The position numbers and the translations under genes are program-made. The notes beneath the pieces were generated by a model. The model did not search any database. It worked only from the letters and a program-made list of their open reading frames with translations, and was not told the origin of the DNA. A stretch of DNA of 64,000 nt from Mobula hypostoma (taxonomy: Eukaryota), in NCBI RefSeq assembly GCF_963921235.1, contig NC_086097.1, forward strand, positions 46,998,001 to 47,062,000, in the 5' to 3' direction. Of the stretch, positions 1,176-56,965 are shown in pieces; position 1 is the first letter of the stretch; every line of letters begins with the position of its first letter.

Positions 1176-2820
1176 ATGGTCAGCCTAATTATGCCACGTG
1201 GAAAGAGAAGGGAGACATTATGGTCAAGAGATTACGCCAAATGTCATCAGGAAGCGGCAAGGAGAGGGAGAGAACAAGAATTGGATGAGGCCAGGGCCAC
1301 ACGACTCCAGGATCAAAGAGTCAGGACAAAAAAGATGAGAGAAGAAGAGACAGAGGAGGAGAGGCATGCACGTCTCCAAAATGACAATAGTCACAGAAGG
1401 AAGAGAGAACAAGAATCTGATCAGGCCAGAGCTGCATGACTGTGGGATCAGAGAGAAAGAACAAATGGTTGAAGAGATGAAGGATGAAAGGGCTTCGCAT
1501 CTCCAGAATGACAACTGGCATAGAAGGACGAGAGAGTAAGAGACAAAGGAGCTGAGGAATGCACGTCTCCAGGATCAGAGACAAAGAACAAACGGCAGAA
1601 GAGATGAAGAGACGGGGGATGAAAGGGCTGCGCATCTCCAGAATGACAAAAACAGGCACAGAAGGAGGGGAGAGGAAGAGACAGAGGAGAAAAGGAAAGA
1701 TTGATTCGAGAATATGCGGCAAAGAGTAATTGCAAGAGTTGCTGAAGACGACAATGCCCGCTTTCAATGAAATACCTCAACAGAAAAAGAGCAAGACAAA
1801 ATGCACGACTCGCATGCCGTAACGTTTCTACAGATGTTGGTTCGATGATCAGAGTATGCCTTCCTATTTACTGGAGAAACCGCAAATTTCTGCTGTATGA
1901 AGGGAAAGGTCAGGATAGGCAATTTGCAAGCTCTACCCAATGAACTCAAGTTATACAGCAATGATGAACCTATTGCAAACGATTTCAGGAAGAACATCAG
2001 ACAGTACAGTTGCCTCTTCCAAATGACATCTTTTGGTGCCAAAGAAGTCCTTCCAACGAGGAATGGATGGAATTCTTCTGTGATTATTCAAGGCCAAATC
2101 CATCATTACTTCGGACACTTAATGCCAGACCCTAACCAGCAAGCCCGATTCCTTCAAATTTACTTCATGGATCCTCAAGACAACGTAGAATTGAGAATGG
2201 GGATGCTATGGAATGATGGAATTCAACGTGAGATTGTTGAATTATTGGAAAACCTACAGCAACGAAAACCATACATTGCGTCCCTTCGACTTGCAAAAGA
2301 ACAAATTCAAGGCATGCCAGAGGCGTCCATTGTAAGCCCGATTCCTTCAAATTTACTTCATGGATCCTCAAGACAATGTAGAATTGAGAATGGGGATGCT
2401 ATGGAATGATGGAATTCAACGTGAGATTGTTGAATTATTGGAAAACCTACGGCAACGAAAACCGTACATTGCGTCCCTTCGACTTGCAAAAGAACAAATT
2501 CAAGGCATGCCAGAGGCGTCCATTGTCATTGATCCTGACCGGAGACGAGCATTTGAACATGAGAGAAGATTTAATGCACAAATTGCCAAAGAAATCGCTG
2601 TCATTATACCGAACAGCACTGAACAGGAAGCAAGATTATGGCAGATTGTGTTGAAAGAACGAGGAGGTGATTTGCAACTAATTTCAGAGTCCCATTGCTC
2701 ATATAACAGCTTTCAATACGTACTTTTTTTTCCACTTGGAGACGATGGCTAGTATCGTCAACTCCGAATGATGAACAACAAGAAACTGACTTCAATGCGT
2801 TATTATGCATATCGAATTAA
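1176..2820 (+). pseudogene. Disrupted Helitron RepHel N-terminal coding region
   Basis: Charged ~23-aa repeats, then FCCMKGKV, FRKNIRQYSCLFQMTSFG, IQGQIHH, FLQIYF, QYVLFFPLGDDG and MRYYAYR, all typical of the segment preceding the Helitron Rep domain. Has stops and frameshifts; no HUH or PIF1 helicase part seen. Confidence 0.82.
2141..2526 (+). repeat. 193-bp tandem duplication inside the Helitron
   Basis: 2141-2333 is repeated almost exactly at 2334-2526; both copies start aagcccgattccttc and end gcgtccattgt. Confidence 0.97.
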
Positions 2821-3574: not shown

Positions 3575-3769
3575 CACACTTCACATATGGATGGCCGTTC
3601 AGAAGTTTCTTCTCGGTCAGCCCGCTCTGGGGGAGCACGATGCCGTAATTCGATTACATGTTGTGCTGATGAACAGCCACACATAGGAAATTATAGGCTC
3701 TTGAAAACTATAGGCAAGGGAAACTTTGCCAAGGTAAAGCTGGCTAGACACATCCTCACCGGAAGAGAG
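3575..3769 (+). CDS. MARK3: MAP/microtubule affinity-regulating kinase 3, internal coding exon (equivalent to exon 2), 195 nt, phase 0/0
   Basis: Acceptor tttcag (AG 3573-3574) and donor GTaaat at 3770. Translates [65 protein letters not shown], including the GKGNFAKV glycine-rich loop. The HTSH.DGR.EV N-terminus fits MARK3 better than MARK1/2/4. Confidence 0.93.
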
Positions 3770-5931: not shown

Positions 5932-6520
5932 GCAACACACATAAAAGTTGCTGGTGAACGCAGCAGGCCGGGCAGCATCTCTAGGAAGAGGTACAGTCGA
6001 TGTTTCGGGCGGAGACCCTTCGTCAGGACTAACTGAAAGAAGAGCTAGTAAGAGATTTGAAAGTGAAAGGGGGAGGGGGAGATCCGAAATGATAGGAGAA
6101 GACAGGAGGGGGAGGGATGGAGCCAAGAGCTGGACATGGATATGAGAGAATCATGGGACAGGAGGCCTAGGGAGAAAGAAAAGGGGGAGGGGGGGAAAAG
6201 CCCAGAGGATGGGCAAGGGGTATAGTGAGATGGACAGAAAAAGGAGAGAGAGAGAGAAAAAGAATGTGTGTATATAAATAAATAACAGATGGAGTACAAG
6301 GGGGAGGTGGGGCATTAGCGGAAGTTTGAGAAGTCAATGTTCATGCCATCAGGTTGGAGGCTACCCAGACAGAATATAAGGTGTTGTTCCTCCAACCTGA
6401 GTGTGGCTTCATCTTGACAGTAGAGGAGGCCGTGGATAGACATATCAGAATGGGAATGGGACGTGGAATTAAAATGTGTGGCCACTGAGAGATCCTGCTT
6501 TCTCTGGCGGACAGAGTGTA
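5932..6520 (-). mobile_element. Penelope-like element 3' end (GIY-YIG C-terminus plus pseudo-LTR)
   Basis: Minus strand encodes LEEQHLIFCLGSLQPDGMNIDFSNFR*, then a pyrimidine-rich tract and a hammerhead motif. Near-identical to the copies at 20390 and 23669. Confidence 0.8.
5995..6030 (-). ncRNA. Minimal hammerhead ribozyme motif, slightly decayed
   Basis: Reverse complement reads agtc-CTGACGA-a-gggtctccgccc-GAAA-ca-TC-gact. Confidence 0.65.
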
Positions 6521-9947: not shown

Positions 9948-10001
9948 GTTGCAATAAAAATTATCGACAAAACACAGCTGAATCCTACAAGTTTGCAAAA
10001 G
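9948..10001 (+). CDS. MARK3: MARK3 coding exon (equivalent to exon 3), 54 nt, phase 0/0
   Basis: Acceptor cttctag (AG 9946-9947) and donor GTaggg at 10002. Translates VAIKIIDKTQLNPTSLQK (catalytic Lys motif), continuing in frame from the previous exon. Not in the ORF track. Confidence 0.95.
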
Positions 10002-18790: not shown

Positions 18791-18929
18791 GGCATGAATG
18801 TAGATAAGACCGTACGTGAACCTGAATGCAGTACATCAGATGAAGGAAGAATGAATCACTGTCACCTCAAGAGTTTAGATCCTGGCAATGGATAGGGAAG
18901 AAATGAAAGCTCTGATCCCATCTTACTGC

Positions 18930-20045
18930 CGGTCCTGGGTCCAGGACGCAAGTCCAATTATGAAGAAAGCACAACAATGCCTCTACTTCCTTAGAAGTTT
19001 GCGAAGATTCAGCATGACATCTAACACTTTGACAAATTTCTATAGATATGTAATAGGGAGTATATTGACTGGCTGCATCACAGCCTGGTATAGAAACACC
19101 AATGCTCTTGAACAGCAAATCCTACAAAAGGTAGTGGATATTTCCGAGTATATCACGGATAAAGCCCTCCCCACCATTGAGCATACCTGCAGAGTGTTGT
19201 CACAGGAAAGCAGCACTCATCATCAGGGATCCCCACCACCCAGATTGCTGCTGCCATTGGGAACGTTGTACAGGAGCCTCAGTTCTCACACCAGCAGGTC
19301 CAGGAACAGTTATTACCCTTCAACCATCAGGTTGTTGACCCAGAGGGATAACCTCACTTGCCCCATGACTGAACTGTTTCCACAACCTATGGGCACAATT
19401 TCAAGGACACTTCATCTCATATTCTTGATACTTATTATTAGTATTATTATTATTTTTTTTTGTATTTGCACAGTTTGTTGTCTTTTGCACACTAGTTGTC
19501 CGGTTGGTGTGGTCTTTCATTGATTCTGTTATGGTTATTGGATTATTGAATATGCCCACAAGAAAATGAATCTTGGTTGCATATGGTGACATGTATGCAC
19601 TTTCATTATAAATTTACTTTTGAAGTGTGAACTTTGTGGACTGAATCAAAGGTGATGACAAATCAGCACATAGGGAGATTGAAAATTTGATTGAATGGTG
19701 CCACAACAACTTCTCACTCGGTCAGCAAAACCAAAGAGCTGATTATTGGCCGCAGGAGTAAAATGGAGGTCCATAAGCCAGGAATCATTGGGGATCAGAG
19801 GTAGGGAGGGTCAGCAACTTTAAATTCCTCTACAACTTGAGCTCTTGATATTTATTGATTATTTATTACTTTTTTTTGTATTTCAACACTCTTTTTGCAC
19901 AATGGTTTTTTGTCCATCACTTGTGTGCAATTTTTCATTGATCCTGCTGTGTTTTGTATTTACTATGAATGCCCTCAAGAAAATGAATCTCAGGGTAGTA
20001 TATGGTGACACATATGCATTTTGATAATTTTGAACTTTTGATAAA
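18930..20045 (+). mobile_element. Rex1/Babar-type LINE 3' fragments (two adjacent pieces)
   Basis: KKAQQCLYFLRSLRRF..LTNFYRY.IGSILTGCITAWY and RNSYYPSTIRLL; each piece ends aagaaaatgaatct...tttgaactttg. Confidence 0.82.
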
Positions 20046-20389
20046 GTGTTGCAAGTCCTGTGGTTGAAAGTGCATTATGACTCAGTAATCCATGGAAATG
20101 GAAGAGCAGACAAGTGAGTTGTGAATGAAACAACCTCTATCAAATGCTAGGAAGTGAAGGCACCTTGTTAGACCTAGAAGAAATAGTAAAGGAACCTTTT
20201 TGATCTTTTGCTCAAAATCTTTACACTCTATATAAACTTTCTGTGGATTAAATTCTTTTTGCAGTTTTCTGGCTAACCACACACAGTTTACATCCTCCAG
20301 TTTAAAATCTATCTCAATGACTTTGATTTTTATTACTACTTGTAGGTGGCTTTAATGTTAAAAGTTTCCAGTAATAAAAGCACCTGTTA

Positions 20390-20846
20390 ATATTCCGTCT
20401 GGGTAGCCTCCAACCTGAGGGCATGAACATCGACTTCTCTAACTTCCGCTAATGCCCCACCTCCCCCTCGTACCCCATCCGTTATTTATTTTTATACTCA
20501 CATTCGTTCTCTCACTCTCCTTTTTCTCCCTCTGTCCCTCTGACTATACCCCTTGCCCATTCTCTGGGTTCCCCTTCATCCCCTGTCTTTCTCCCTGGAC
20601 CTCCTGTCCCATGATCCTCTCATATCCCCTTTGCCAATCACCTGTCCAGCTCTTGGTTCCATCCCTCCCCCTCCTGTCGTCTCCTATCATTTTGGATCTC
20701 CCCCTCCCCCTCCCCCTTTCAAATCTCTTACTCACTATTCCTTCAGTTAGTCCTGACGAAAGGTCTCGGCCTGAAACGTCGACTGTACCTCTTCCTAGAG
20801 ATGCTGCCTGGCCTGCTGCGTTTGCCAGCAATTTTGATGTGTGTTG
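20390..20846 (+). mobile_element. Penelope-like element 3' end / pseudo-LTR
   Basis: Encodes IFRLGSLQPEGMNIDFSNFR*, then the pyrimidine tract and an intact hammerhead motif; taatatt at both ends may be a TSD. Confidence 0.82.
20749..20784 (+). ncRNA. Minimal type I hammerhead ribozyme motif, intact core
   Basis: agtc-CTGACGA-a-aggtc(tc)ggcct-GAAA-cg-TC-gact: stem I agtc/gact, 5-bp stem II, palindromic ACGT stem III, GUC cleavage triplet. Confidence 0.75.
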
Positions 20847-21702
20847 GTAATATTACCCTCTGCTTCCTGCCACTAGCTGAAATGCACAGATTACGTACGT
20901 GCATGGTGTCTTTTCCTCCACAAAAAATTCACTTAATAGTTAGATATGACTTACCCCACACATCCATTGTAACTGTCATTGATTGCTCGCAGCTTCAATT
21001 ATAAGGGAACTTCAAACTTGCTTTTGAGAACTAAGATTTTGAGTCTTAACATTTTTGTTCTAAATATTTATGAATTAGGCCAAATTGAGCAGGATTAGGT
21101 CTCCTGATGTTTATTCTCCACTCAGGAATATCTGGCACAGACATCCCACTGTCTTTGGAAGGTGTTTATCAAGGCCTCAGAGTTGACTGGGCATTGACGT
21201 ACATATGGAGCTCTCTGCCATGAATGTCCTGAGAGCCTTGGATAGGAAATAAAGCTAAGGCTGGACCTTTACTTTCTGTCAAAGATGAGAGCTACCTTGT
21301 AGTTTTCTTTGATTAAGAAATATCCTAAAACTCATACAATTAGTTTTGTAAAAACTATTAGAATAACCTATTAAGTTTTGAAAATTAAAAAGACTCAAAT
21401 TGTGATGAAGTATTAATTTTTTTGTAATCTTGTCAGGAATCCACTTTGTGAATAGTTGTGCCGGCATTGAATTGCTACAATCCAGATGGATCAAAACCGA
21501 GTTTTAATAACAGTTAACATAAACTGGTAGCCCCTTAATGCATGCATATGTAGATAAATTCAAGTTAGTATCTGATTACTTGATTAAATTTCAAAGTACA
21601 TTTATTATTTAAATATGTATACTATATACAACCTTGAGGTTTGTCTCCTTAAAGGCTGCCACAAAACAAAGAAATACAATGAAACCCATGTAAAAAAAAG
21701 AC

Positions 21703-21873
21703 GCAAACAACAGGAATTCTGCAGATGCTGGAAATTCAAGCAACACACATCAAAGTTGCTGGTGAACGCAGAACGCAGCAGACCCTTCGTCACGGCCTGA
21801 AACGTCGACTGTACCTCTTCCTAGAGATGCTGCCCGGCCTGCTGCGTTCGCCAGCAACTTTGATGTGTGTTGC
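21703..21873. mobile_element. Two inverted Penelope terminal-repeat stubs inserted as one unit
   Basis: Inverted arms at 21739-21771 and 21842-21874, flanked by the TSD t(a)8gac / t(a)9gac. Confidence 0.75.
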
Positions 21874-21983
21874 TAAAAAAAAAGACCACTGTCAAGCACC
21901 CAAAGAAACAAACAAATCGTGCAAACAATAAAGCTATGCTGAGTGCCACCAGTGCCATCTTAAACTACCATAAACTTATGTAA

Positions 21984-22043
21984 AGGAAATGTTCATTTTC
22001 AATGGAAATGCACAGGAAATGTTCATTTTCAATGGAAATGCAC
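21984..22043 (+). repeat. 30-bp perfect tandem duplication
   Basis: aggaaatgttcattttcaatggaaatgcac occurs twice in a row. Confidence 0.95.
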
Positions 22044-23668
22044 ATTCAAGTAGTGTTTGCATAATTTTATTTTAAGAATGCTAATGCAAAATGAAAATAA
22101 CTGAAAGTGAATAGTAAAATAAACAGAAAATCCCATATTTTAAAGTGCCAGAGTTCACTTAAGTCTTGACCAAGAAGGCAACTTTGCTAACTTCTATCTT
22201 TATAAGAGTAGAACTTATGATATGAAAGGCATTTGAATCCTGCGTGGATTTTGAAGATTCTTTTATTTTGAAAGGGAACTTGTTTCTACTGATTTGATCT
22301 TTTATCACCTTGAAGGGAGATTTAGTACTTCAGCAAAGACTGCAAGTTGCTGTATGAATTCTGTATCTTGCTGATCCTCCATCTTTGTGGTCAAATCCTC
22401 AATACCACATCCTGTGGATGTACTTAGAGGTAATGATCATGAGCTAATAACAGTTATTTAGCTAAATTCCGTACAGTACATCAGAGGCAATTAAAATGGC
22501 CCACAAGGCAAAGCTCAGGTTTCAAAGTTTGTGAACGGCCTTGGGAAATGGTTCATTTTCCTTGACCTTGTAGTCTCATTGTTATCTTGAAATGCAGTTG
22601 CATTTCACCTATTCCAGTGGTGGAAGAATTGCCACATGACTTGGTGGGTAGAAGAGAGGCTTGCATTCATTCAGAATATCTGAAATCACCTCACAGTCAG
22701 TGTTGTGCCTTCGTAGTGCACTAAGTAGTGATCTATTATAAGGATACAGCAGTTTATTTGTGCATAACAAATGCCCACAAGCAGCATCTGATAATATAGT
22801 TATTTAGGTCTTGTTGATGTATTGGCCTAGATATTGTTATAACAAACAATTTAATAAAATAAAACACCTTCATTCCTGGAGCAGTCTGCTGATGCTACAT
22901 TGGGATGTCAACCTAGAAAAATGGCCTTAAAAATGTGTCGTTTAAAAAAAGTTTACATAGAAATCCATTGAAAATTGCACACTTGGGCATTTAAATTAAT
23001 GTACCTTTTTAACAAGAAAGTGAAATTAAATATAAACTGCATAAAAATAGGTAATTAAAATTAGGCATTTATCTTCAATATTATAAGTAATTTAAAAGCA
23101 ATACAGTTTTACCCAATTGCTTTATTTATTATTTTATTTTAATTTTTTTCCCTCAGGATGATAATGGTCCTTAGTTGTTCTTGAAGTGATGATCCGCTTT
23201 AAATTTCTCAGGGTGACAAAGGTACTTGTTTGTCAGGCAGGGAATTATTGCCTAGAATCCAGTGATAGAAGATTGAGGATTGATACAAGTCAGGATTCTG
23301 TGACTTTTATGGAATTCGATGGTAGTCCCAAAAGTTGAAAGTAAATTTATTAAAATACGTACACTCTGTGTGGCCACTTTATTAGGTGCACCTGTACACC
23401 TGTTTATTAATACAAATATTGAATCACCCAATCATGTGGCAGCCACGTAATGCATAAAAATGTAGAGCCGGTTGTTGTTCAGACCAAACATTAGAATGGG
23501 GAAGAAATGTGATCAGTGACTTTAACCTTGAAATGATTGTTGGTGCCAGATGGAGTGGTTTGCTTATGTCAGGAGCTGCTGATCTCCTGCAGTTTTCTTG
23601 CACAACAATCTCGAATTTACAGAGAATGATGCGAAAAAAGTCGCGTGAGAAGCAGTTATGTGGGTGAA

Positions 23669-24127
23669 GCAACACACATCAAAGTTGCTGGTGAATGCAG
23701 CAGGCCAGGCAGCATCTCTAGGAAGAGGTGCAGTCGACGTTTCAGGCCAAGACCCTTCGTCAGGACTAACTGAAGGAAGAGTGAGTAAGGGATTTGAAAG
23801 TGAGAGGGGGAGGGGGAGATGCAAAATGATAGGAGAAGACAGGAGGGGGAGGGATAGAGCCAAGAGCTGGACAGGTGATAGGCAAAAGGGGATAAGAGAG
23901 GATCATGGGACAGGAGGTCTGGGAAGAAAGACGGGGGGGGGGACCCAGAGGATGGGCAAGGGGTATATTCAGAGGGACAGAGGGAGAAAAAGGAGAGTGA
24001 AAGAAAGAATGTGTGCATAAAAATAAGTAACAGATGGGGTACGAGGGGGAGGTGGGGCCTTAGCGGAAGTTAGAGAAGTCGATGTTCATGCCATCAGGTT
24101 GGAGGTTACCCAGACGGAATATAAGGT
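23669..24127 (-). mobile_element. Penelope-like element 3' end / pseudo-LTR
   Basis: 14-bp TSD gttatgtgggtgaa at 23655-23668 and 24128-24141; encodes HLIFRLGNLQPDGMNIDFSNFR* on -. Confidence 0.85.
23732..23767 (-). ncRNA. Minimal hammerhead ribozyme motif, intact core
   Basis: Reverse complement reads agtc-CTGACGA-a-gggtc(tt)ggcct-GAAA-cg-TC-gact. Confidence 0.72.
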
Positions 24128-24557
24128 GTTATGTGGGTGAAAATGGTTTGTTAATGAGCTGTCAGAGGAGAATGGCCAGACTGGTTCAAGCTGCCAGGAG
24201 GGTGACAATGACTCAAATAATGATGCGCTACAGTATTGGTGTGTAGAAGAGCACCTCTGAATGCACACCACGTCAAACCTTGAAGTGGATAGGCTACAGC
24301 AGCAGAAGACCACACTGGGTTTCACTCTGGTACCTAAACAAGTGACCACCATATACTACCCTGAGATTCATTTTCTTATGGGCATTCATAGTAGATACAA
24401 AGAAACACGATGGAATCAATGAAAAATTACACACAAAAACAGGCACGCAACCAGTGTGTGTAAGGAGACAAACTGCAATTGCAAAATAATAAATAATATT
24501 GAGAACATGAGTTTGTAGAGCCCTTGAAAGTGAGTCCATAGAAAGTGAGTCCAGTTG

Positions 24558-26336
24558 TATGAGAGAGGAATTGGCCAAAGTAAATTGGAAAGATCTGCTG
24601 GCAGGGATGTCAGCAGCGCAACAATGGAAACACGAGGAAATCTGCAGATGCTGGAAATTCAAGCAACACACACAAAATTCTGGGAGAACGCAGCGGGCCA
24701 GGCAGCATCTATTTGAAGAAGTACAGTCAATGTTTCAGGCCAAGACCCTTCATCAGGACTAACTGAAAGAAGAGATAGTAAGAGATTTGAAAGTGGGAGG
24801 GGGAGGGATGGAGTTAATGGTGTGTGTTTCTGGGAAAAATGAGGAAAGTGCAGGGTGTATATTCCAAAAATGAAGAAGTACTCAAGTGGTAAAATAGTAC
24901 AACTGTGGCTAGCAAGGGAAGTCAAAGCTATTGTAAAAGCAAATGAAAGGGCATACAACAAAGCAAAAATTAGCGGGAGGATAGAGGATTGGGAAGTTTT
25001 TAAAAACCTACAGACAGCAACTAAAAAAAATCATTAGAAAGGAAAAGATGAAATATGAAAGCAAGCTAGCAAATAATATCAAAGTGGATAGTAATTTTTT
25101 TCAAGTATGTTAAAAACAAAAGAAATGAGAGTGAATATAGAACTGCTAGAAGATGAGGCAGGAGAAATAATAATGGGAGACAAGGAGATGGCTGCTAAAT
25201 GAGTATTTTGAGTCAGTTTTCACTATGGAAGACACTAGCAGTATGCCTGATACAATGTGTGAAGGAAGAGAAGTGGGTGCCCATGGTATTGCAGGAAAGT
25301 TACTAACATGATTAGAGCATTGGCTGATTGGTAGGAGGCAGTGAATGGGAATAAAAGGATCCTTTTCTACTTGGCTGCCAGTGACTAGTGGTGCTCCACA
25401 GGGGCGGTGTTCGGACCACTTCTTTTTGTGCTGTATATCAATGATTTAGATGGCTTTGTTGCCAGGTTTGCAGATGATACGAAGGTTGGTGGAGGGGCAG
25501 GTAGTTTTGAGGAAGCTGGTAGGATGCAGAAAGACAGCTTAGGAGAATGGGCAAGAAAGTGGCAAATGAAATACAGTGTTGGTAAATGCATAGTCATGCA
25601 CTTTGCTAGTAGAAATAAACGTGTGGACTATTTCTTTAAATGGGGAGAAAATCCAGGAATCTGAAATACAGGGGGACTTGGGAGTCCTTATGCAGAACAC
25701 CCTGAAGGTTAATTTGCAGGTTGAGTTGGTGGTGAGGAAGGCAAATTCCATGTTTGCATTCATTTCAAGAGGTCTAGAATACAAGAGCAAGGATGTGATG
25801 CTGAGGCTTTATAAGGCACTGGTAAGCCTTCTCCTTGAGTATTGTGAACAGTTTTGGGACCCTCATCTTAGAAAAGCTGTGCTGGCATTAGAGAGGGTTC
25901 AGAGGAGGTTCATAAGGATGATTCCAGGAATGAAAGGGTTATACGAGGAACGTTTGATGGCTCTGGAATTCAGAAGGATGACGGAGGATCTCATTGAAAC
26001 CTTTCGAATGTTGAAAGGCTTAGACAGAGTGGCGTGAGAGTTTAGGACAAGAAGGCACAGCCTCAGAATAGAAGGGCACCCTTTCAAAACAGATGCGGAA
26101 AAATTTCTTTAGCTAAAGGGTGGTGAATTTGTTGCCACGTGCATCTGTGGAGGCCAGGTCGTTGGGTGTATTTAAGGCAGAGATTGATCAGTTCTTGACT
26201 GGACATGGCGTGGAAGGTTATGGGGAGAAGGCCGGGAGAAGGAGGAGATAGGAAAAAGGATCAGCCATGATTGAATGGCGGAGCAGACTTGATGGGCTGG
26301 ATGGCCTAATTCTTCTCCTATGTCTTATGGTCTTAT
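24558..26336 (+). mobile_element. CR1 LINE with internal deletions
   Basis: MREELAKVNW, LYINDLDGFVARFADDTK and LYKALV..LEYCEQFW; ends tatgtcttatggtctta. Confidence 0.9.
24628..24812 (-). mobile_element. Penelope terminal-repeat fragment with a decayed hammerhead motif (24725-24760)
   Basis: Reverse complement reads agtc-CTGATGA-a-gggtcttggcct-GAAA-ca-TT-gact; interrupts the CR1. Confidence 0.75.
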
Positions 26337-27612: not shown

Positions 27613-28307
27613 TGTTGTTGTTCGTCCTTCGTAGTGGAAGATGACCATGGCTTCAAAGTCAAATGGGAGATTGGTGGCTGTGGGTCCGGAGGTGACTGAT
27701 GAGGCCAATCCAGGCCCTGAAGGCTCGCCCACATGTGGGACACAAGTGGGTGGGTGCTGTCGTGGCAGTGGATGCTGGGGCCTTGCGCACAGCACGCTTT
27801 CGTTGCGCCTCGATGATGCGCCTGACTTCAGCTGCACGGGCTCCTGTGGTGATCTTGCTGCGCCAAGCTGGATGGTCGAGGGCAAGCGTCTCCCACGTGT
27901 TGATGTTGACACCCAGGCCTTTGAGGGACGCTTTGAGGCAGTCTTTGTAACGTTTCTTCTGCCCCCCGACTGAGCGCTTGCCCTGACCCAGTTCTCCGTA
28001 CAGCAGCTGCTTAGGCAATCGGCTGTCTGGCATTCTGACCACATGTCCAGCCCACCTGGCTTGGGCTTTCAGCAGGAGGGTGTAGACGCTGCAGAGCCCA
28101 GCTCGTTCCAGGATTTCCGTGTCGGGGACTTTGTCCTGCCACCTGATGTGGAGTAGTCTGCGGAGACAGCTCAGGTGAATGTGGTTGAGCTGTTTGGCAT
28201 GTCTGCTGTAGACAGTCCAGGTCTCGCTGGCATAATGAAGGGTGGTAAGGACCACTGCACAGTAGACCTTCAGCTTAGTGGTAAGGCTGAGTCTTATTAT
28301 TTTACCC
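27613..28307 (-). mobile_element. RTE-clade LINE, 5'-truncated
   Basis: Open 198-aa frame with LHYASETW, RWAGHVVRMPDSRLPKQLLYGEL, GGQKKRYKD and a C-terminal CxxC..H..H. (CAA)n tail; 13-bp TSD ttatggataaaat at 27600-27612 and 28308-28320. Confidence 0.92.
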
Positions 28308-28365
28308 TTATGGATAAAATACAGCCTCTCTAGTTACCCTTATTATTTGGCTGACTAATAGCTAG

Positions 28366-34819: not shown

Positions 34820-36300
34820 TTCCGGAAGGTGGGAGGCAGCAGAAAGGAAACTATAGACCTTTTAGCCTGACATCAGTGGTTGGGAAGTTGTTGGAATCGA
34901 TTGTTAGGGATGAGATTACGGATAACCTGGAGGCACATGGCAAGGTAGGCCAAAGCCAACATGGTTTCCTGAAAGGAAAATCCGGCCCAACAAACCTACT
35001 GCAATTTTTTGAGGAAATTACAAGCAGGATAGGGGAACCTTCAGGGAACTATGCACCATTATTCCCAGATCCCTCTGTTCTACAGCATTCTTCAATGCCC
35101 TACCATTTACCAGCATTAAACTCCATCTGTACTTCGATTTTCAAAAGGCCTTTGACAAGGTGCCGCACATGAGGCTGCTTAGCAAGATGACAGCCCATGG
35201 AATTACAGGGAAGTTACTAGTATGGTGGAACATTGGCTGATTGGCAGAAAACAGACAGTAGGAATAAAGGGATCCTATTCTGTCTGGCTGCCGGTTACCA
35301 GTGGAGTTCTATAGGGGTCAGTGTTGGGACTGCTGCTTTTTACGATGTATGTCAATGATTTGGACTATGGGATTAATGGATTTGTGGCTAAATTTGCCAA
35401 TGATACAAAGATGGGTGGAGGAGCAGGTAGTGTTGAGGAAACAGAGACTTAGATAGTTGAGGGGAATGGGCAAAGAAATGGCAAATGAAATACAATGTTG
35501 GAAAGTGTATGGTCATGCACTTTGGTGGAAGAAATAAATGGGCAGACTATTATTTAGATGGGGAGAGAATTCAAAATGCGGAGATGCAAAGGGACTTGGG
35601 AGTCCTTGTGCAAGATACCCTAAAGGTTCACTTCCAGGTTGAGTCGGTTGTGAAGAAGGTGAATGCAATGTTGGCATTCATTTCTAGAGGTATAGAATAT
35701 AAGAGCAGGGATTTGATTTTGAGGCTCTATAAGGCACTCGTGAGGTCACACTTGCAGTATTGTGTGCAGTTTTGGGCTCCTTGTTTTAGAAAGGATATAC
35801 TGACGTTGGAGATGGTTCAGAGAAGATTCACAAGAATCATTCTAGGAATGAAAGGGTTACTATATGAGGGACGTCTGGCAGCTCTTGGGCTGTATTTCCT
35901 GGAGTTCAGGAGAATGAGGGGGGATCTCATAGAAACATTTCACATGTTAAAAGGCCTGAACAGTTTAGATATAGCAAAGTTATTTCCTATGGTAGGGGAT
36001 TCTAGGACAAGAGGGCACAACTTCAGGATTGAAGGACGTCCATTTAGAACTGAGATGTGGAGAAATTACTTTAGTCAGAGGGTGGTAAATCTGTGGAATT
36101 TATTGCCATGAATGGCTGTGGAGGCCAAGTCACTGGGTGTATTTAAGATAGGTTCTTGATTAGCCAGGGCATCAAAGGGTATGGGGTGAAGGCAGGGGAA
36201 TGGGAATGACTGGAAGAATTGGATCAGCCCATGATTGAATGGCAGAGCAGACTCGATGGGCCAAATAGCCTACTTCTGCCCCTATATCATATAGTCTTAT
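34820..36300 (+). mobile_element. CR1 LINE RT region to 3' end
   Basis: NYRPFSLTSVVGKLLESIV, QHGFLKGKS, KFANDTK and a 208-aa open stretch (35485-36111), followed by the 3' UTR. Confidence 0.93.
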
Positions 36301-37098: not shown

Positions 37099-38408
37099 AT
37101 AAGAACATATGAACATAAGAAATAGGAGCAGGAATAGGCCATCCTTCCCATTGAGCCTGCCCCGCCATTCAGTAAGATCATGGTTGATCTGTCCGTAAAC
37201 TCAGCTCCATCTACCTGCCTTTTCCCCATAACCCTTAATTCTCTTACTATGTAAAAACCTATCTAACTGTTTCTTAAATATTTTTTAGTGAGGAAGGCTC
37301 AACTGCTTCCCTGGGCAGAGAATTCCACAGATTTACTACTCTCTGGGAAAAACAGTTTCTCCTCATCTCCATCCTAGATCCTCTCCCCTGAATCTTGAGG
37401 CAATGCCTCCTAGTTCTAGTCTCACCTACCAATGGAAACAACTTTCCTACTTCTATCTTATCTAACCCTTTCAAAATTTTGTACGTTTCTATAAGATTCC
37501 ATCTCATTCTTTTGAACTCCAGAGAGTATAGTCCCAGGCAACACAATCTCTCCTCATAGGTTAACCCCGTCATCCCTGGAATCAACCTGGTGAACCTCCT
37601 CTGCACTGCCTCCAGAGCCAGTATATCCTTCCTCAAGTATGGAGACCAGAACTGCACACAGTATTCCAGGTGCGGACTCACCAGTACCCTGTATCGTTGC
37701 AGTATGACCTGCCTGCTCTTGAATTCAATCCCTCTAGCAATGAAGGCCAACATTCCGTTTGCCTTCTTAATAACTTGTTGTACCTGCAAGCCAACTTTTT
37801 GCGATTCATGGACAAGTACTCCCAAGTTCTTCTGCATAACAGCATGCTGCAATCTTTAAATAATACTCTGCTCTTCTATTATTCCTTCCAAAGTGGATGA
37901 TCTTGCATTTACTAGCGTTGTATTCCATCTGCCAGACCTTGGCCCGCTCACTTAACCTATCTATATCCCTCTGCAGACTCTCCACATCCTCTGTACAATA
38001 TTGTTTTTCCACTCAGTTTAGTGTCATCAGCAAATTTTGTTACGCTACACTCAGTCCCCTCTTCCAAATCATCAATGTAAATGGCAAACAGCTGCAGGCC
38101 CAGCACCGACCCCTGTGGCACCCCACTGCCAACCAGAGAAACACCCATTTATACCAACTCTCTGCCTTCTATTGGCTAACCAATCCACTATCCATGCCAA
38201 TACACTTCCTCCGACTCCATGCATCCGTACCTTATTTATAAGCCTCTTGTGCGGCACCTTATCGAACGCCTTCTGGAAATCCAAGTATACGGCATCCACC
38301 TGTTCCCCTCTATCCACTGCACTCATTATGTCCTCAAAGAACTCCAGTAAGTTTGTCAAACAGGACCTGCCCTTTCTGAATCCATGCTGTGTCTGTCTAA
38401 TGGAACAT
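37099..38408 (-). mobile_element. CR1 LINE, 5'-truncated
   Basis: [33 protein letters not shown] and HLEYCVQFWSP; tail appears as (cataagaa)n on +. Confidence 0.93.
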
Positions 38409-48626: not shown

Positions 48627-49774
48627 TATTCCTAATAAATAAAATCCAAATCAATTTTAAAAGTACTTCAAGGCTGTGGAGATGAGGTTGTTTATTGAGG
48701 AAGTGCAAGTCAACCACACACAGACATTGTACGCCTTGTATATCTTTCATCTTGTTTCAGTATACCTTTTCTCATCAGAACAAAATTAATTTTAAAAGCC
48801 AAGTACAAAGCATATAGCCATATCCTAGATATTAATGGCATCCTTCACATTTAAAGTTCATCTTAACAAATTTTTGGTTAGGTTCTTAAAACTTCAAAAT
48901 TACTAAAAAAAAAGATTCATTTTTAATAGTTTGAAAACTCTGTCTCCCAAGTCAGTACGCTATGAATTTTTTACTTTCCCTCTGAAGGTGTTTTTAATTT
49001 TAGTTTTCTATTTATTGATTATATTTTCCTCCTAAGCCTTGTCTGTTTTTTTTGGTAATGCAAGTTAGTGATCAAAAATGTGTTAATGGTAGCTTTCACA
49101 AACCACCACCTCCGCCCTATTTGTTAATTTTGTTATTTCCTCCACATTTGCAGTTGCAGCTTTTTATCTGATTCAAAAGAGCTTGGGTATTGTTTGTTAA
49201 TCATTGTAAAAGATATTCTTCATAAATTAATGGACTACATTTTGGATTGCAATATTGAGAAACTAAGGAAGTTTTCCAGTTATTTTGAAATAAATTTTTA
49301 TCCAACCATATATGAAATTAAAGTGATTAAGTATTTTCGTCTCAACCTGGCTGTAGATTTTGAGTGATGTTCAAGACCTGCCAGTTTTAGGCATTTTACC
49401 ACTTGGCAACATCATGATCTAGGTTTTTAAAAATTGCTGTGTAACAATTATGTTGTCTCTGTTGAAAGCTAACGATAAATCTATTCAAAATGTGATTACT
49501 GTCAGCTGGTCCAATAGTAATATTCTTCCTAAACAGGAGTAGCTCTCAGCTGGGCAGTGAATTTGTTCAGTGATCATCACGCAGTCAGTATAGGCGACCA
49601 TTTATCCTAGCCACTTGGGTTACGGAAACTTGACCTTGCAGAATTCAAAATTCACGAGCCAAAATTTGTTGTCGGGGAATTTGTCGTAAAAAACACTAAA
49701 TCAACACACAGCAGCACATACAAATGCTGGTGGAACTCAGTAGGTCGAGCAGTATCTATGGAAAGGAATAAAGA

Positions 49775-50210
49775 ATGGACACGAAAGAGAAGCCAAGATG
49801 GTTTGTTGTCCTACAGGTTCTAGGGTCCAGGACGTCTGAAAGGCTGCAGAAGATTTTCAAGAGTGAGGGTGAGCAGCAAGAGGCTATGGTGCACCTTGGC
49901 ACCAATGACATAGGTCAAAAGGGGGAAAAGATCTTGTGCTGTGAGTATGGAGAGTTGGGGAAGAGACTGGAAAGCAGGACATCCAAGGTAGTAATTTCTC
50001 GAGTACACCCAGAACCAAATGTTAGTCAGGACAGGAATAGGATGATAGCACGGAGGATGAGTGGCTGAGGAAGTAGGGTAGGGGCAGGGATTCAAATTTC
50101 TGAGTCATTGAAATCTCTTCTGAGCAAGGTATGACCTGTACAGAAAGGAGGGGTTACATCTGAACCTGAGGGGGATCATATCTTTGTGGCAGTTTTGCAA
50201 GGCCAGAGTG
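49775..50210 (+). mobile_element. CR1 ORF1 SGNH-esterase remnant
   Basis: VHLGTNDIG (GxND block) and LESRTSKVVIS, with a downstream LHLN-like remnant. Confidence 0.7.
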
Positions 50211-50214
50211 AGGA

Positions 50215-50710
50215 ATAGAGGAGCGAAGGGGGAGGGAGAAAATTACTAGAAGTTGGAGAAATCGATAATTCCTATCACCAGGTTGGAGTCTAAGTAAGGT
50301 GTTGCTCTTCCAACCTGAGAGTGGTCTCATTGTGGCGGAAGTGGAGGCCCTAGACTGACTTGGAGTGAGGATAGGAAGTAAAATGGCTGGCCACCGGGAA
50401 ATGTCCATTTTTGTGAATGGAGTGGAAAGGCTTGACAAACTGGTCTACCAATCTACATCGGGTCTCACCACTATAGAGTAGGCTGCATCAGGAGCACTGG
50501 ATTCTGTAGAGGACCACCGTATTTGCAGGTGAAGTGTTGCCTCATCTGGAAGGACTGTCTGGGTGTCTGATGGGAGGTGAGGGAGAAGGTGAATGGGCAG
50601 GTGTTGTCCTTCTGCTTGCAGAGATGAATGTTAGCAGGGAGGTTATTGGGAGGGACGAATGGGCTGGGGAATCATTGAAGGTGTGATTCCTGTGGACTGG
50701 CTGAGTAGGG
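50215..50710 (-). mobile_element. Penelope-like GIY-YIG fragment, decayed
   Basis: Minus-strand remnants resembling YSGETR..L..RF and RLEEQHL...LQP; homologous to 6300-6520. Confidence 0.6.
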
Positions 50711-54612: not shown

Positions 54613-55544
54613 TTATATGCACTGCATCTGGGAAATATGCTCAGCTGTTTTTGTTACAGGGTGGTGAAGATTTTTTTTAGGTTTGGTCAGGTTACACGTC
54701 TTGTATTTGAATTGTTACTGCAACAAACTGTGTGCTAGATGAACACAGTGGATTAAGCAGCTTCTGTTGTGGGGTTGCAGGTGGTTTTGTTAAGGAAATG
54801 TTGACATTTCAGGTCAAAACCCTGCATTAGGATATTTGAAATGTTTTTATCTGGGAAGAATGTTTCATCTGAACCACAGTTTTTGATATATAACATGGTG
54901 TTACTAAAAATAAGAGGAAGGGAAACTAGCATACATTAGTCACCAGTAACTTTTGAAGAGAAGATGTTTTGCATTTAGCAGAATTCTACAAATCAAAAAA
55001 CCTAACCTTTAACATGCTACTTCAAGTTCTAATATTTGGCAGGGTTTAGGCATTCATAATTGAATTAACAAGTATTCCATGATGAATCTGGCTTGATAGG
55101 ATAAGAAGGCAAATATTGCTATTAGCATTAATAGAATCAGAGGCAAGTCATTACCTGCAAGTAAACAGATGTTGGAAATATTCAGAATGGAAAGAGGAAC
55201 AGTAACATTTTAAATTGTTGGTCTTTCATCAGAACTTAACAAACTGAGAAATCAAACATGGTTTAGAGAAGGAGGCGAAGGGGTGGAGAGAACAATGAGA
55301 ATGTCTGTAATGGAGACTGAATAGTGAAGTCGTTTGAGTGAGGCTTAATAATTACAGGTGATTTGTCAAAACAAAAATCATGCTGGAGCTGTAAGACACA
55401 AAATGCTGCATTTTGTTGTAAATTTGACATAAAACAATGCTGGAAATAGTAAGTCAGCCAAAAAAACATAAGAAATGTGAGCAGAGGTTGGCCATTTGGC
55501 TTCGAGCTAACACCACTATTCAACACGATCATGATTGTTTTTTT

Positions 55545-56965
55545 TTTCAACCACTCATTTCTACGGGCTAAAGTTCCCACTTGCTTCAAAAAGGCAACAA
55601 TTATACCAGAGCCTAAGAAGCATAATGTGAGCTGTCTTAATGACTATTGCCCGGTAGCGCTCACATCTCCAGTGGTGAAATGCTTTGAGAGGTTGGTCAT
55701 GACTAGACTGAACTCCTGCTTCAGCAAGGACCTGGACCCATTGCATTTTGTCTATCGCCACAACAGCAGATGCAATTCCAATGGTTTTTCACATGGCCTT
55801 CAAACACCTGGACAATACGAATACCCATGTCAGGATGCTGTTCATCGATTATAGCTCAGCATTGAGCACCATCATTCCCACGACCCTGATTGAGAAGTTA
55901 CAGAACCTGGGCCTCCGTACCTCCCTCTGTAATTGGAGCCTTGACTTCCTAACTGGAAGACCACAATCTGTGCGGATTACTGACAACATCTCCTCCTTGC
56001 TGACGATCAAAACTGGTGCGCCTCAGGAGTGTGTACTTAGCCCACTGCTCTATTCTCTCTATGCCCATGACTGTGTGGCTCGTCATAGTTCAAATTTTGC
56101 TGATGATACAACTATTGTTGGTAGAATCTCAGATGGAGATGAGAGGGCGTACAGGAGCGAGATAAGCCAACTAGTGGAGTGCTGTCGCAGCAACAGCCTG
56201 GCACTCAAAGTCAGTAAGCTAAAAGAGATGATTGTGGACTTCAGGAAGGGTAAGACGAAGGAACACATACCAATCCTCATAGGGGATCAGAAGTGGAGAG
56301 AGTGAGCAGTTTTAAGTTCCTGAATGTTGAGACCTCTGAAGACCCAGCCTGGTCCCAACATATCGATGCAGTTATAAAGAAGGCAAGACAGCGACTATAC
56401 TTCATTAGGAGTCTGAAGAGATTTGGCATGTCAACAAATACACTCAAAAGTTTCTACACATGTACTGTGGAGAGCATTCTGAGAGGCTGCATCACTGTCT
56501 GGTATGGGGCAGCTACAGCACAAGACCGAAATAAGCTGCAGCGGGTTGTAAATTTAGTTGGCTCCATCTTAGGTACTAGCCTACAAAGTACCCAGGACAT
56601 CTTCAGGGAGCAGTGTCTCAGAAAGGCAGCGTCCATTATTAAGGACCTCCAGCATCCAGGGCATGCCCTTTTCTCACTGTAGGAGTTGCAGAAGCCTGAA
56701 AGCGCACACTCGGTGATTCAGGAACTACTTCTTCCCCTCTGCCATCCGATTCCTAAATGGACATTGAACCTGTGAACACTACCTCACTTTTTAAATATAT
56801 TATTTCTGTTTTTTGCACAATTTTTAATCTATTCAATATACGTACGTTGTAATGGATTTATTTATTATTATTTTTTCCCTCTTCTATATTATGTATTGCA
56901 TTGAACTGCTGCTGCTGTTAACAAATTTCACGACACATGCTGGTGATAATAAAGTTAATTCTGAT
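55545..56965 (+). mobile_element. Rex1/Babar-type LINE, RT to 3' end, frameshifted
   Basis: [65 protein letters not shown] and KKARQRLYFIR. Confidence 0.9.

What the first reader, a model, noticed from the sequence alone, without database searches (positions are those of the whole stretch)
20749..20784. Minimal hammerhead ribozyme in a Penelope-like terminal repeat, sense to the MARK3 pre-mRNA
Seen: AGUC-CUGACGA-A-AGGUC(UC)GGCCU-GAAA-CG-UC-GACU. It has every hammerhead core nucleotide, a 4-bp stem I, a 5-bp stem II, an extra A after A9, and stem III reduced to the palindrome ACGU. Known: Penelope-like elements carry such minimal type I hammerheads, which are thought to cleave as dimers. Inference: this sense-strand copy could cut the MARK3 intron co-transcriptionally if it pairs with a second copy.
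Basis: partly seen in the sequence, partly recalled or inferred. Interest (0 to 1): 0.7.

Follow-up and report, generated by a model that had tools for sequence, protein, structure and literature searches.

The report
Penelope retrotransposon stub with minimal hammerhead
This is the cut-short tail of a Penelope-type jumping gene, inserted in an intron of the MARK3 gene of what is likely a ray, carrying the tiny hammerhead self-cutting RNA motif already known from such elements; it likely served the parent element and is predicted not to cut the host gene's RNA here, so it is ordinary.

Summary
The motif is real, at 20749-20784, with every core base and the cut site after C20780. It lies near the 3' end of a 460-base, 5'-truncated Penelope-like element (likely Neptune clade) with a 7-base target-site duplication, sense to MARK3, downstream of the second of two MARK3 exons found. 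Two related organisms carry the empty site, so the insertion is young, not a conserved MARK3 feature. Two corrections: stem II is 4 pairs with a four-base loop, not 5 pairs; and this copy has A where 96-99.7% of family depth has the conserved G10.1. At family level the motif is selected: 30 sense hits against 6 antisense and 1.4 shuffled in 80 loci found by protein alone. Cutting of MARK3 RNA is unsupported: no intact sense partner lies in the window, the monomer is predicted to misfold, and an antisense copy 2.8 kb away would pair with it. Published minimal hammerheads do not cut as monomers and cut weakly as dimers (PMC4209133). The scan noted the same thing on other DNA (27 findings, at least 11 genomes). 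Known kind; low interest.

The parts
20749..20784 (+). Minimal type I hammerhead motif
20748..20752 (+). Stem I, 5' strand (pairs with 20781-20785)
   Evidence: pair probabilities 0.81-0.99 in a 43-base fold
20753..20760 (+). Core C3-A9 plus the extra A typical of Penelope hammerheads
   Evidence: PMC4209133
20761..20772 (+). Stem II, 4 pairs with CUCG loop; first pair is A-U, where the family has G at 20761
20773..20780 (+). G12-A13-A14, palindrome ACGU in place of helix III, and C17 (predicted cut after 20780)
20781..20785 (+). Stem I, 3' strand
20390..20847 (+). 5'-truncated Penelope-like element (likely Neptune clade); 91% and 85% identical to copies at 23670-24122 and 5933-6377 on the - strand
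20390..20452 (+). Last 20 codons and stop of the GIY-YIG endonuclease frame
20453..20747 (+). Pyrimidine-rich 3' untranslated stretch of the element
20786..20847 (+). Element's 3' end downstream of the ribozyme
20388..20394 (+). Target-site duplication, left copy (7 bases; the last 5 also match the element)
20848..20854 (+). Target-site duplication, right copy
21794..21812 (+). 3' half of a second hammerhead, in a fold-back insertion at about 21704-21874; a possible substrate strand (C17 = 21806) but not an enzyme strand
23670..24122 (-). Antisense copy of the same element; predicted to form a long duplex with the sense copy in the pre-mRNA
3575..3769 (+). MARK3 coding exon (residues 18-82 of P0021)
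9948..10001 (+). MARK3 coding exon (residues 83-100); last main-isoform exon found in the window

Best explanation
This is the hammerhead motif of a 5'-truncated Penelope-like retrotransposon that inserted into a MARK3 intron after the split from two related organisms; the motif likely helped process the parent element's RNA, and this isolated copy is likely a passenger that is predicted to cut rarely or never. Shown: sequence, element boundaries, duplication, empty sites, family-wide G at 10.1, strand and position bias in distant relatives. Inferred from the literature: in tandem transcripts of the autonomous element two motifs swap strands, their ACGU palindromes form helix III, G12 and the 2'-OH of G8 catalyse attack at C17, and the RNA is cut and perhaps closed to a circle. 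Inferred for this copy: reverse transcription from the 3' end stopped after about 460 bases and joined the target through a short shared sequence; in the pre-mRNA the motif lacks helix III and an intact sense partner, pairs its own core with the cut site, and is then taken up in a duplex with an antisense copy.
For: Element identity: the longer copy's 71-residue frame hits ray proteins (13 of 16 candidates passed); the longest have the RT end, a cysteine linker and GIY-YIG in that order (weak Pfam GIY-YIG hits in 4 of 6, all below cut-off). Young insertion: single contigs of organisms C and D join 20387 to 20848. Family-level selection. Against activity here: locked monomer -11.6 against open form -7.6 kcal/mol, lock pairs 0.98-1.0; active dimer -13.9 against -23.2 for two monomers; stem I probability 0.31, 0.04 and 0.02 in 101, 201 and 471 bases of context; duplex of the 43 bases with the antisense copy -78.1. 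Copies decay alike on both strands: 1 of 3 complete sense motifs and 1 of 4 antisense keep core, stems and palindrome. PMC4209133: monomer no detectable cleavage, dimer and trimer low.
Against: This copy keeps every strict core base. A10.1-U11.1 is still a pair and occurs in 3 of the 56 published motifs by my reading, so it is not proof of death; if the subfamily had G-U there the change may be harmless (one search lists no other letter at 20772, yet 3 of 6 other complete window copies have C). The locked fold is shared by the copy that keeps G10.1, so it does not single this copy out. Nearest-neighbour energies omit the core's non-standard contacts and any protein help. The antisense copy downstream is transcribed later, which leaves a short time window. 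A partner could lie beyond the window or on another transcript.
Confidence: 0.85

Rival explanations
1. The copy cuts the MARK3 pre-mRNA at a low but real rate: either as enzyme strand on the half copy 1 kb downstream (cut after 21806) or as substrate of an intact copy on another RNA (cut after 20780).
For: Core intact. The half copy supplies a perfect ACGU-C-stem I strand on the same RNA. The family is very abundant: 7 complete motifs in 64 kb; 20,632 contigs of run X1 laid on 70 bases.
Against: The active pairing with the half copy is -8.5 kcal/mol against -11.6 for the locked monomer and -17.6 for the best co-fold, before the cost of a 1-kb loop. G10.1 is lost. Published dimers cut poorly even when adjacent. 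The long antisense duplex competes.
Confidence: 0.1
2. The copy has been taken up by the host as a regulator of MARK3 (termination or splicing), like the conserved intronic hammerheads of amniotes.
For: Sense orientation. A predicted short isoform (P0017, 116 residues) ends in an exon at 18804-18854, 1.9 kb upstream. Domesticated intronic hammerheads are described (PMC6155905 passages).
Against: Absent from organisms C and D. Its one private change hits a conserved position. A plain AATAAA signal at 20373 lies upstream of the insertion. Other sharks have short isoforms that end after the same exon with unrelated tails (P0057, P0049). It lacks the helix III and loop contacts of the canonical type.
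Confidence: 0.03
3. The match to a hammerhead is chance.
For: No Rfam hammerhead hit; folding z-score -1.13.
Against: the same layout as the published coral Neptune motif, which also turned up in 6 of the 24 downstream hits.
Confidence: 0.02

Closest known systems
Minimal hammerheads (min-HHR) in terminal repeats of metazoan Penelope-like elements (Cervera and de la Pena 2014, PMC4209133), closest the Acropora digitifera Neptune motif
   Same: Type I order, CUGANGA plus one extra base, short stem I, 4-pair stem II with a four-base loop, GAAA, palindromic CG in place of helix III, C17, U-rich 5' flank, position 3' of the ORF; solitary 3' motifs on 5'-truncated copies are described as the usual case.
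   Different: A-U instead of the consensus G10.1-C11.1 in this copy; no cartilaginous fish among the 56 listed motifs.
Neptune clade of endonuclease-bearing Penelope-like elements (Craig et al. 2021, PMC8557442, passages)
   Same: C-terminal GIY-YIG with two cysteines between GIY and YIG, a CX2-5CxxC linker upstream, hammerhead near the 3' end, 30-40 base tail on some copies, inverted truncated neighbours, variable target duplications.
   Different: Only the last 20 codons are in this copy; domain order comes from ray homologues. No RT tree was built, so Nematis is not formally excluded.
Non-LTR retrozymes (bioRxiv 10.64898/2026.07.22.740005, part 1 of 5 and passages)
   Same: Type I hammerhead, Penelope-related, reported in one cartilaginous fish.
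   Different: Retrozymes are tandem repeats with two or more complete motifs; this is a solitary stub that keeps ORF remnant and has a target duplication.
Conserved intronic hammerheads of amniotes (RECK and others; PMC6155905 passages)
   Same: Type I hammerhead in a vertebrate intron.
   Different: Those are canonical and conserved across classes; this one is minimal, repetitive and absent from near relatives.

Membership tests
PLE minimal hammerhead | Core CUGANGA ... GAAA ... UH in type I order | tested here: met
PLE minimal hammerhead | One unpaired base between 9 and 10.1 | tested here: met
   A20760
PLE minimal hammerhead | Palindromic 15.2/16.2, no helix III in the monomer | tested here: met
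   ACGU 20776-20779
PLE minimal hammerhead | G10.1-C11.1 pair (consensus, not universal) | tested here: not met
   A-U in this copy; family has G at 10.1. A-U in 3 and G-U in 8 of 56 published rows by my reading, so this does not exclude membership.
PLE minimal hammerhead | Lies 3' of a PLE ORF on the coding strand | tested here: met
   about 300 bases after the stop at 20452
PLE minimal hammerhead | Cleavage as a dimer | not testable with these tools
   only folding estimates
Neptune clade | RT followed by C-terminal GIY-YIG with the cysteine pair | tested here: met
   read by eye in P0002, P0004; Pfam GIY-YIG below cut-off
Neptune clade | CX2-5CxxC linker, absent from Penelope/Poseidon, shared with Nematis | tested here: met
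   present in P0001-P0004, P0007; definition
Neptune clade | Placement in an RT tree | not tested
   no reference set of clade sequences held
Non-LTR retrozyme | Tandem units each with a complete hammerhead | tested here: not met
   copies are dispersed, on both strands
Domesticated intronic hammerhead | Conserved at the orthologous site | tested here: not met
   empty site in 2 of 4 organisms laid
Rfam hammerhead families | Reaches a family score | tested here: not met
   expected for a motif without helix III (inference)

The most novel reading that the evidence does not exclude
In rays this family is so dense (seven complete motifs in 64 kb) that solitary hammerheads in host introns complement each other: this copy would act as enzyme on the half copy 1 kb downstream and cut nascent MARK3 RNA after 21806, favouring the short isoform that ends at 18804-18854. 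That would be split, long-range ribozyme cleavage assembled by chance from two independent insertions.
Probability: 0.05. Interest if true: 0.6.

Novelty: new member of a known kind. Interest (0 to 1): 0.13.

Why it matters
As it stands, little: it adds a ray Neptune-type family to a motif class described in 2014 from thousands of copies per genome. It has some use as a test case, because the function of these hammerheads is still called unclear (PMC8557442): a young copy with an empty-site relative, a half copy and an antisense copy nearby allows a clean test of whether solitary motifs ever cut host RNA. If they did, very abundant intronic copies would be a hidden load on long genes in cartilaginous fish.

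Tried and rejected
No whole genome is held for the window, so genome-wide copy number, strand bias in introns and partners beyond the window were not counted. Rfam: no hammerhead family; the weak mir-2 hit at 21743-21872 is the fold-back insertion. A 19-base pattern from the element's tail in viral contigs gave 1 locus, unrelated outside the match. Sequencing runs: no RNA holder on record; two runs guessed to be RNA were laid as contigs and show no place where many molecules begin or end, which says nothing on cleavage. The orthologous motif in organism B could not be read, as its listed contigs stop inside the repeat. Summed depths were not used as copy numbers. The table of other letters lists 3 places only and may under-count, so it was not used to compare core with stems. 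No experimental figure for the effect of A10.1-U11.1 was found (4 papers hold the terms; passages of 2 read); that G-C is preferred for activity is recalled. Substitutions between the copy and its two long relatives show no excess of A to G (2 of 33 and 3 of 42; T to C is 10 in each), not followed up. Retrozyme, domesticated ribozyme and chance readings were rejected as above.

Full report
Observation. The 36 bases are at 20749-20784 on +. In hammerhead numbering: stem I 5' strand 20749-20752, C3-A9 20753-20759, an extra A at 20760, stem II 20761-20772, G12-A14 20773-20775, ACGU 20776-20779, C17 20780, stem I 3' strand 20781-20784. A core pattern occurs 3 times in the window against 0.03 expected. 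The five-pair stem II needs a two-base loop that the folding model rejects; it is four pairs around CUCG, and stem I can gain a fifth, U-G pair. The fold is not unusually stable (27 of 200 shuffles as good) and no Rfam hammerhead model matches.

What it sits in. Bases 20390-20846 align with 23670-24122 (91%) and 5933-6377 (85%) on the - strand and with shorter 3' pieces elsewhere. The stretch starts with the last 20 codons of a frame ending at 20452. The longer copy gives 71 residues, which find 13 proteins among 16 candidates, the best from Hypanus and Mobula. [quoted passage not shown] By the definitions in PMC8557442 (passages) this fits Neptune (or Nematis), not Penelope/Poseidon; no tree was built. 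No full ORF is in the window.

Host gene. Exons at 3575-3769 and 9948-10001 on + match MARK3 best among solved structures and are identical to proteins named MARK3a in Mobula. The next exon was not found in the window, so the motif is most likely in a long intron, sense to the gene. The host is likely a myliobatiform ray; this rests on homology only.

Age. Contigs of four organisms were laid on 19800-22400. In C and D one contig runs from 20387 straight to 20848 (X11 record 9, X14 record 17). In A and B contigs cross the right junction (42 and 31 bases inside the element); those at the left junction reach 29 bases in, just under the tool's bar of 31. Seven bases at 20388-20394 recur at 20848-20854: a target duplication. 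Flanks differ by about 1-3% in B and 5-6% in C and D. The insertion is therefore young. Run X1 may be the window's own source and is no independent support.

In all four runs many contigs match from 20749 onward and run on unlike before it (559, 504, 54, 29 contigs), and others leave off after 20786 (331, 328, 33, 22); the table is cut, with 171 rows not shown. So related subfamilies share the ribozyme and differ in the flanks. A descriptor without stem I found 30 hits in 28 loci on the coding strand, 6 on the other (3 of them inverted copies of the same motif) and 1.4 per strand in 20 approximate shuffles. Of 33 loci with 500 bases after the estimated ORF end, 21 have a hit there; of all 24 hits in that range 24 have G10.1 and 23 C11.1, which the descriptor did not ask for, though it picks the longest stem. 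These rows are not independent: 14 come from one assembly and 6 share one motif, which is the published Acropora Neptune motif.

This copy. At 20761 the family reads G in 97.6, 95.8, 99.7 and 98.6% of depth in the four runs, and 5 of the 6 other complete window copies have G. The A is private. Whether it harms is open: A-U stands in 3 and G-U in 8 of 56 published motifs by my reading, and the family letter at 20772 is unresolved (no alternative listed; C in 3 of 6 other copies).

Mechanism. PMC4209133 (main text parts 1-2 of 4; supplement file 2 parts 1-2 of 3; file 1 not seen) proposes that two motifs form helix III from their palindromes; a monomer showed no cleavage, dimers and trimers low cleavage. 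In such a dimer one RNA gives core and stem II, the other gives C17 (inference from the topology). Cutting at 20780 thus needs another intact sense core. The two other complete sense copies have core changes. The half copy at 21794-21812 can only be a substrate, cut after 21806. Estimates: the monomer pairs G5-G8 with 15.2-17 at probability 0.98-1.0 (-11.6 against -7.6 kcal/mol); the active homodimer is -13.9 against -23.2 for two monomers; the pairing with the half copy -8.5. In longer context stem I falls to 0.31, 0.04 and 0.02. The antisense copies pair with the 43 bases at -78.1 and -77.3. These energies omit core contacts and proteins, and the lock is shared by the copy with G10.1. Intact motifs are 1 of 3 on the sense strand and 1 of 4 antisense, too few for a test.

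Against my reading. The core is complete, the energy model is crude, partners outside the window could not be searched, and a predicted short isoform ends in an exon at 18804-18854. A polyadenylation signal at 20373 precedes the insertion, so the isoform needs no ribozyme; its true end is unknown.

Known and new. The class is published, including fish Neptune elements and solitary motifs on truncated copies. I found no report for rays: one paper holds Penelope, hammerhead ribozyme and shark, there for the shape; no cartilaginous fish is among the 56 listed motifs; (listing only) showed none by title. A 2026 preprint reports retrozymes in one cartilaginous fish (part 1 of 5 and passages; its supplements, not seen, may cover this family). 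The scan holds 27 findings with the same words in at least 11 genomes, none near this place. Verdict: real, new member of a known kind, likely inert here; interest 0.13.

Noticed in passing
window 21704-21874: Fold-back insertion of the same family: an inverted 3' tail and inverted 5' half of the hammerhead joined to a forward 3' half at the stem II loop, between repeats of an A-rich 12-mer; absent from organism D (X14 record 20).
   Followed up: partly
window 18804-18854 (+): Alternative last exon of a predicted 116-residue MARK3a isoform (P0017), 16 of 16 residues identical, with an AG acceptor; nearest AATAAA at 20373. Other sharks have short isoforms ending after the same upstream exon with different tails.
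   Followed up: partly
window 20390-20846 with 23670-24122 and 5933-6377: Inverted copies of the element in one pre-mRNA could form a duplex of about 450 pairs, a possible editing substrate.
   Followed up: partly
window 23670-24128: Antisense copy with an intact core and a target duplication of about 14 bases.
   Followed up: partly
window 49707-50650 (-): Older, more diverged copy of the same kind with endonuclease remnants, an interruption, and the hammerhead largely missing.
   Followed up: partly
window 1849-2752 (+): Frames that look like a Helitron replication protein (by eye and recall; no Pfam hit), with a 193-base tandem duplication at 2141-2526.
   Followed up: no
L016-L040 (14 loci of one assembly): Many distinct Penelope-like families whose motif has five bases (ACCGU) where this one has the four-base palindrome, and mostly no extra base after A9; the base at position 17 often reads G.
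   Followed up: no
L079, - strand near 988: A hammerhead-like motif with an 8-pair stem II on the strand opposite to the element's ORF.
   Followed up: no
window 27659-28333 (-), 25594-26037, 35461-36111, 37274-37855, 55453-56682: Fragments of other LINE-type retrotransposons, named by eye only.
   Followed up: no
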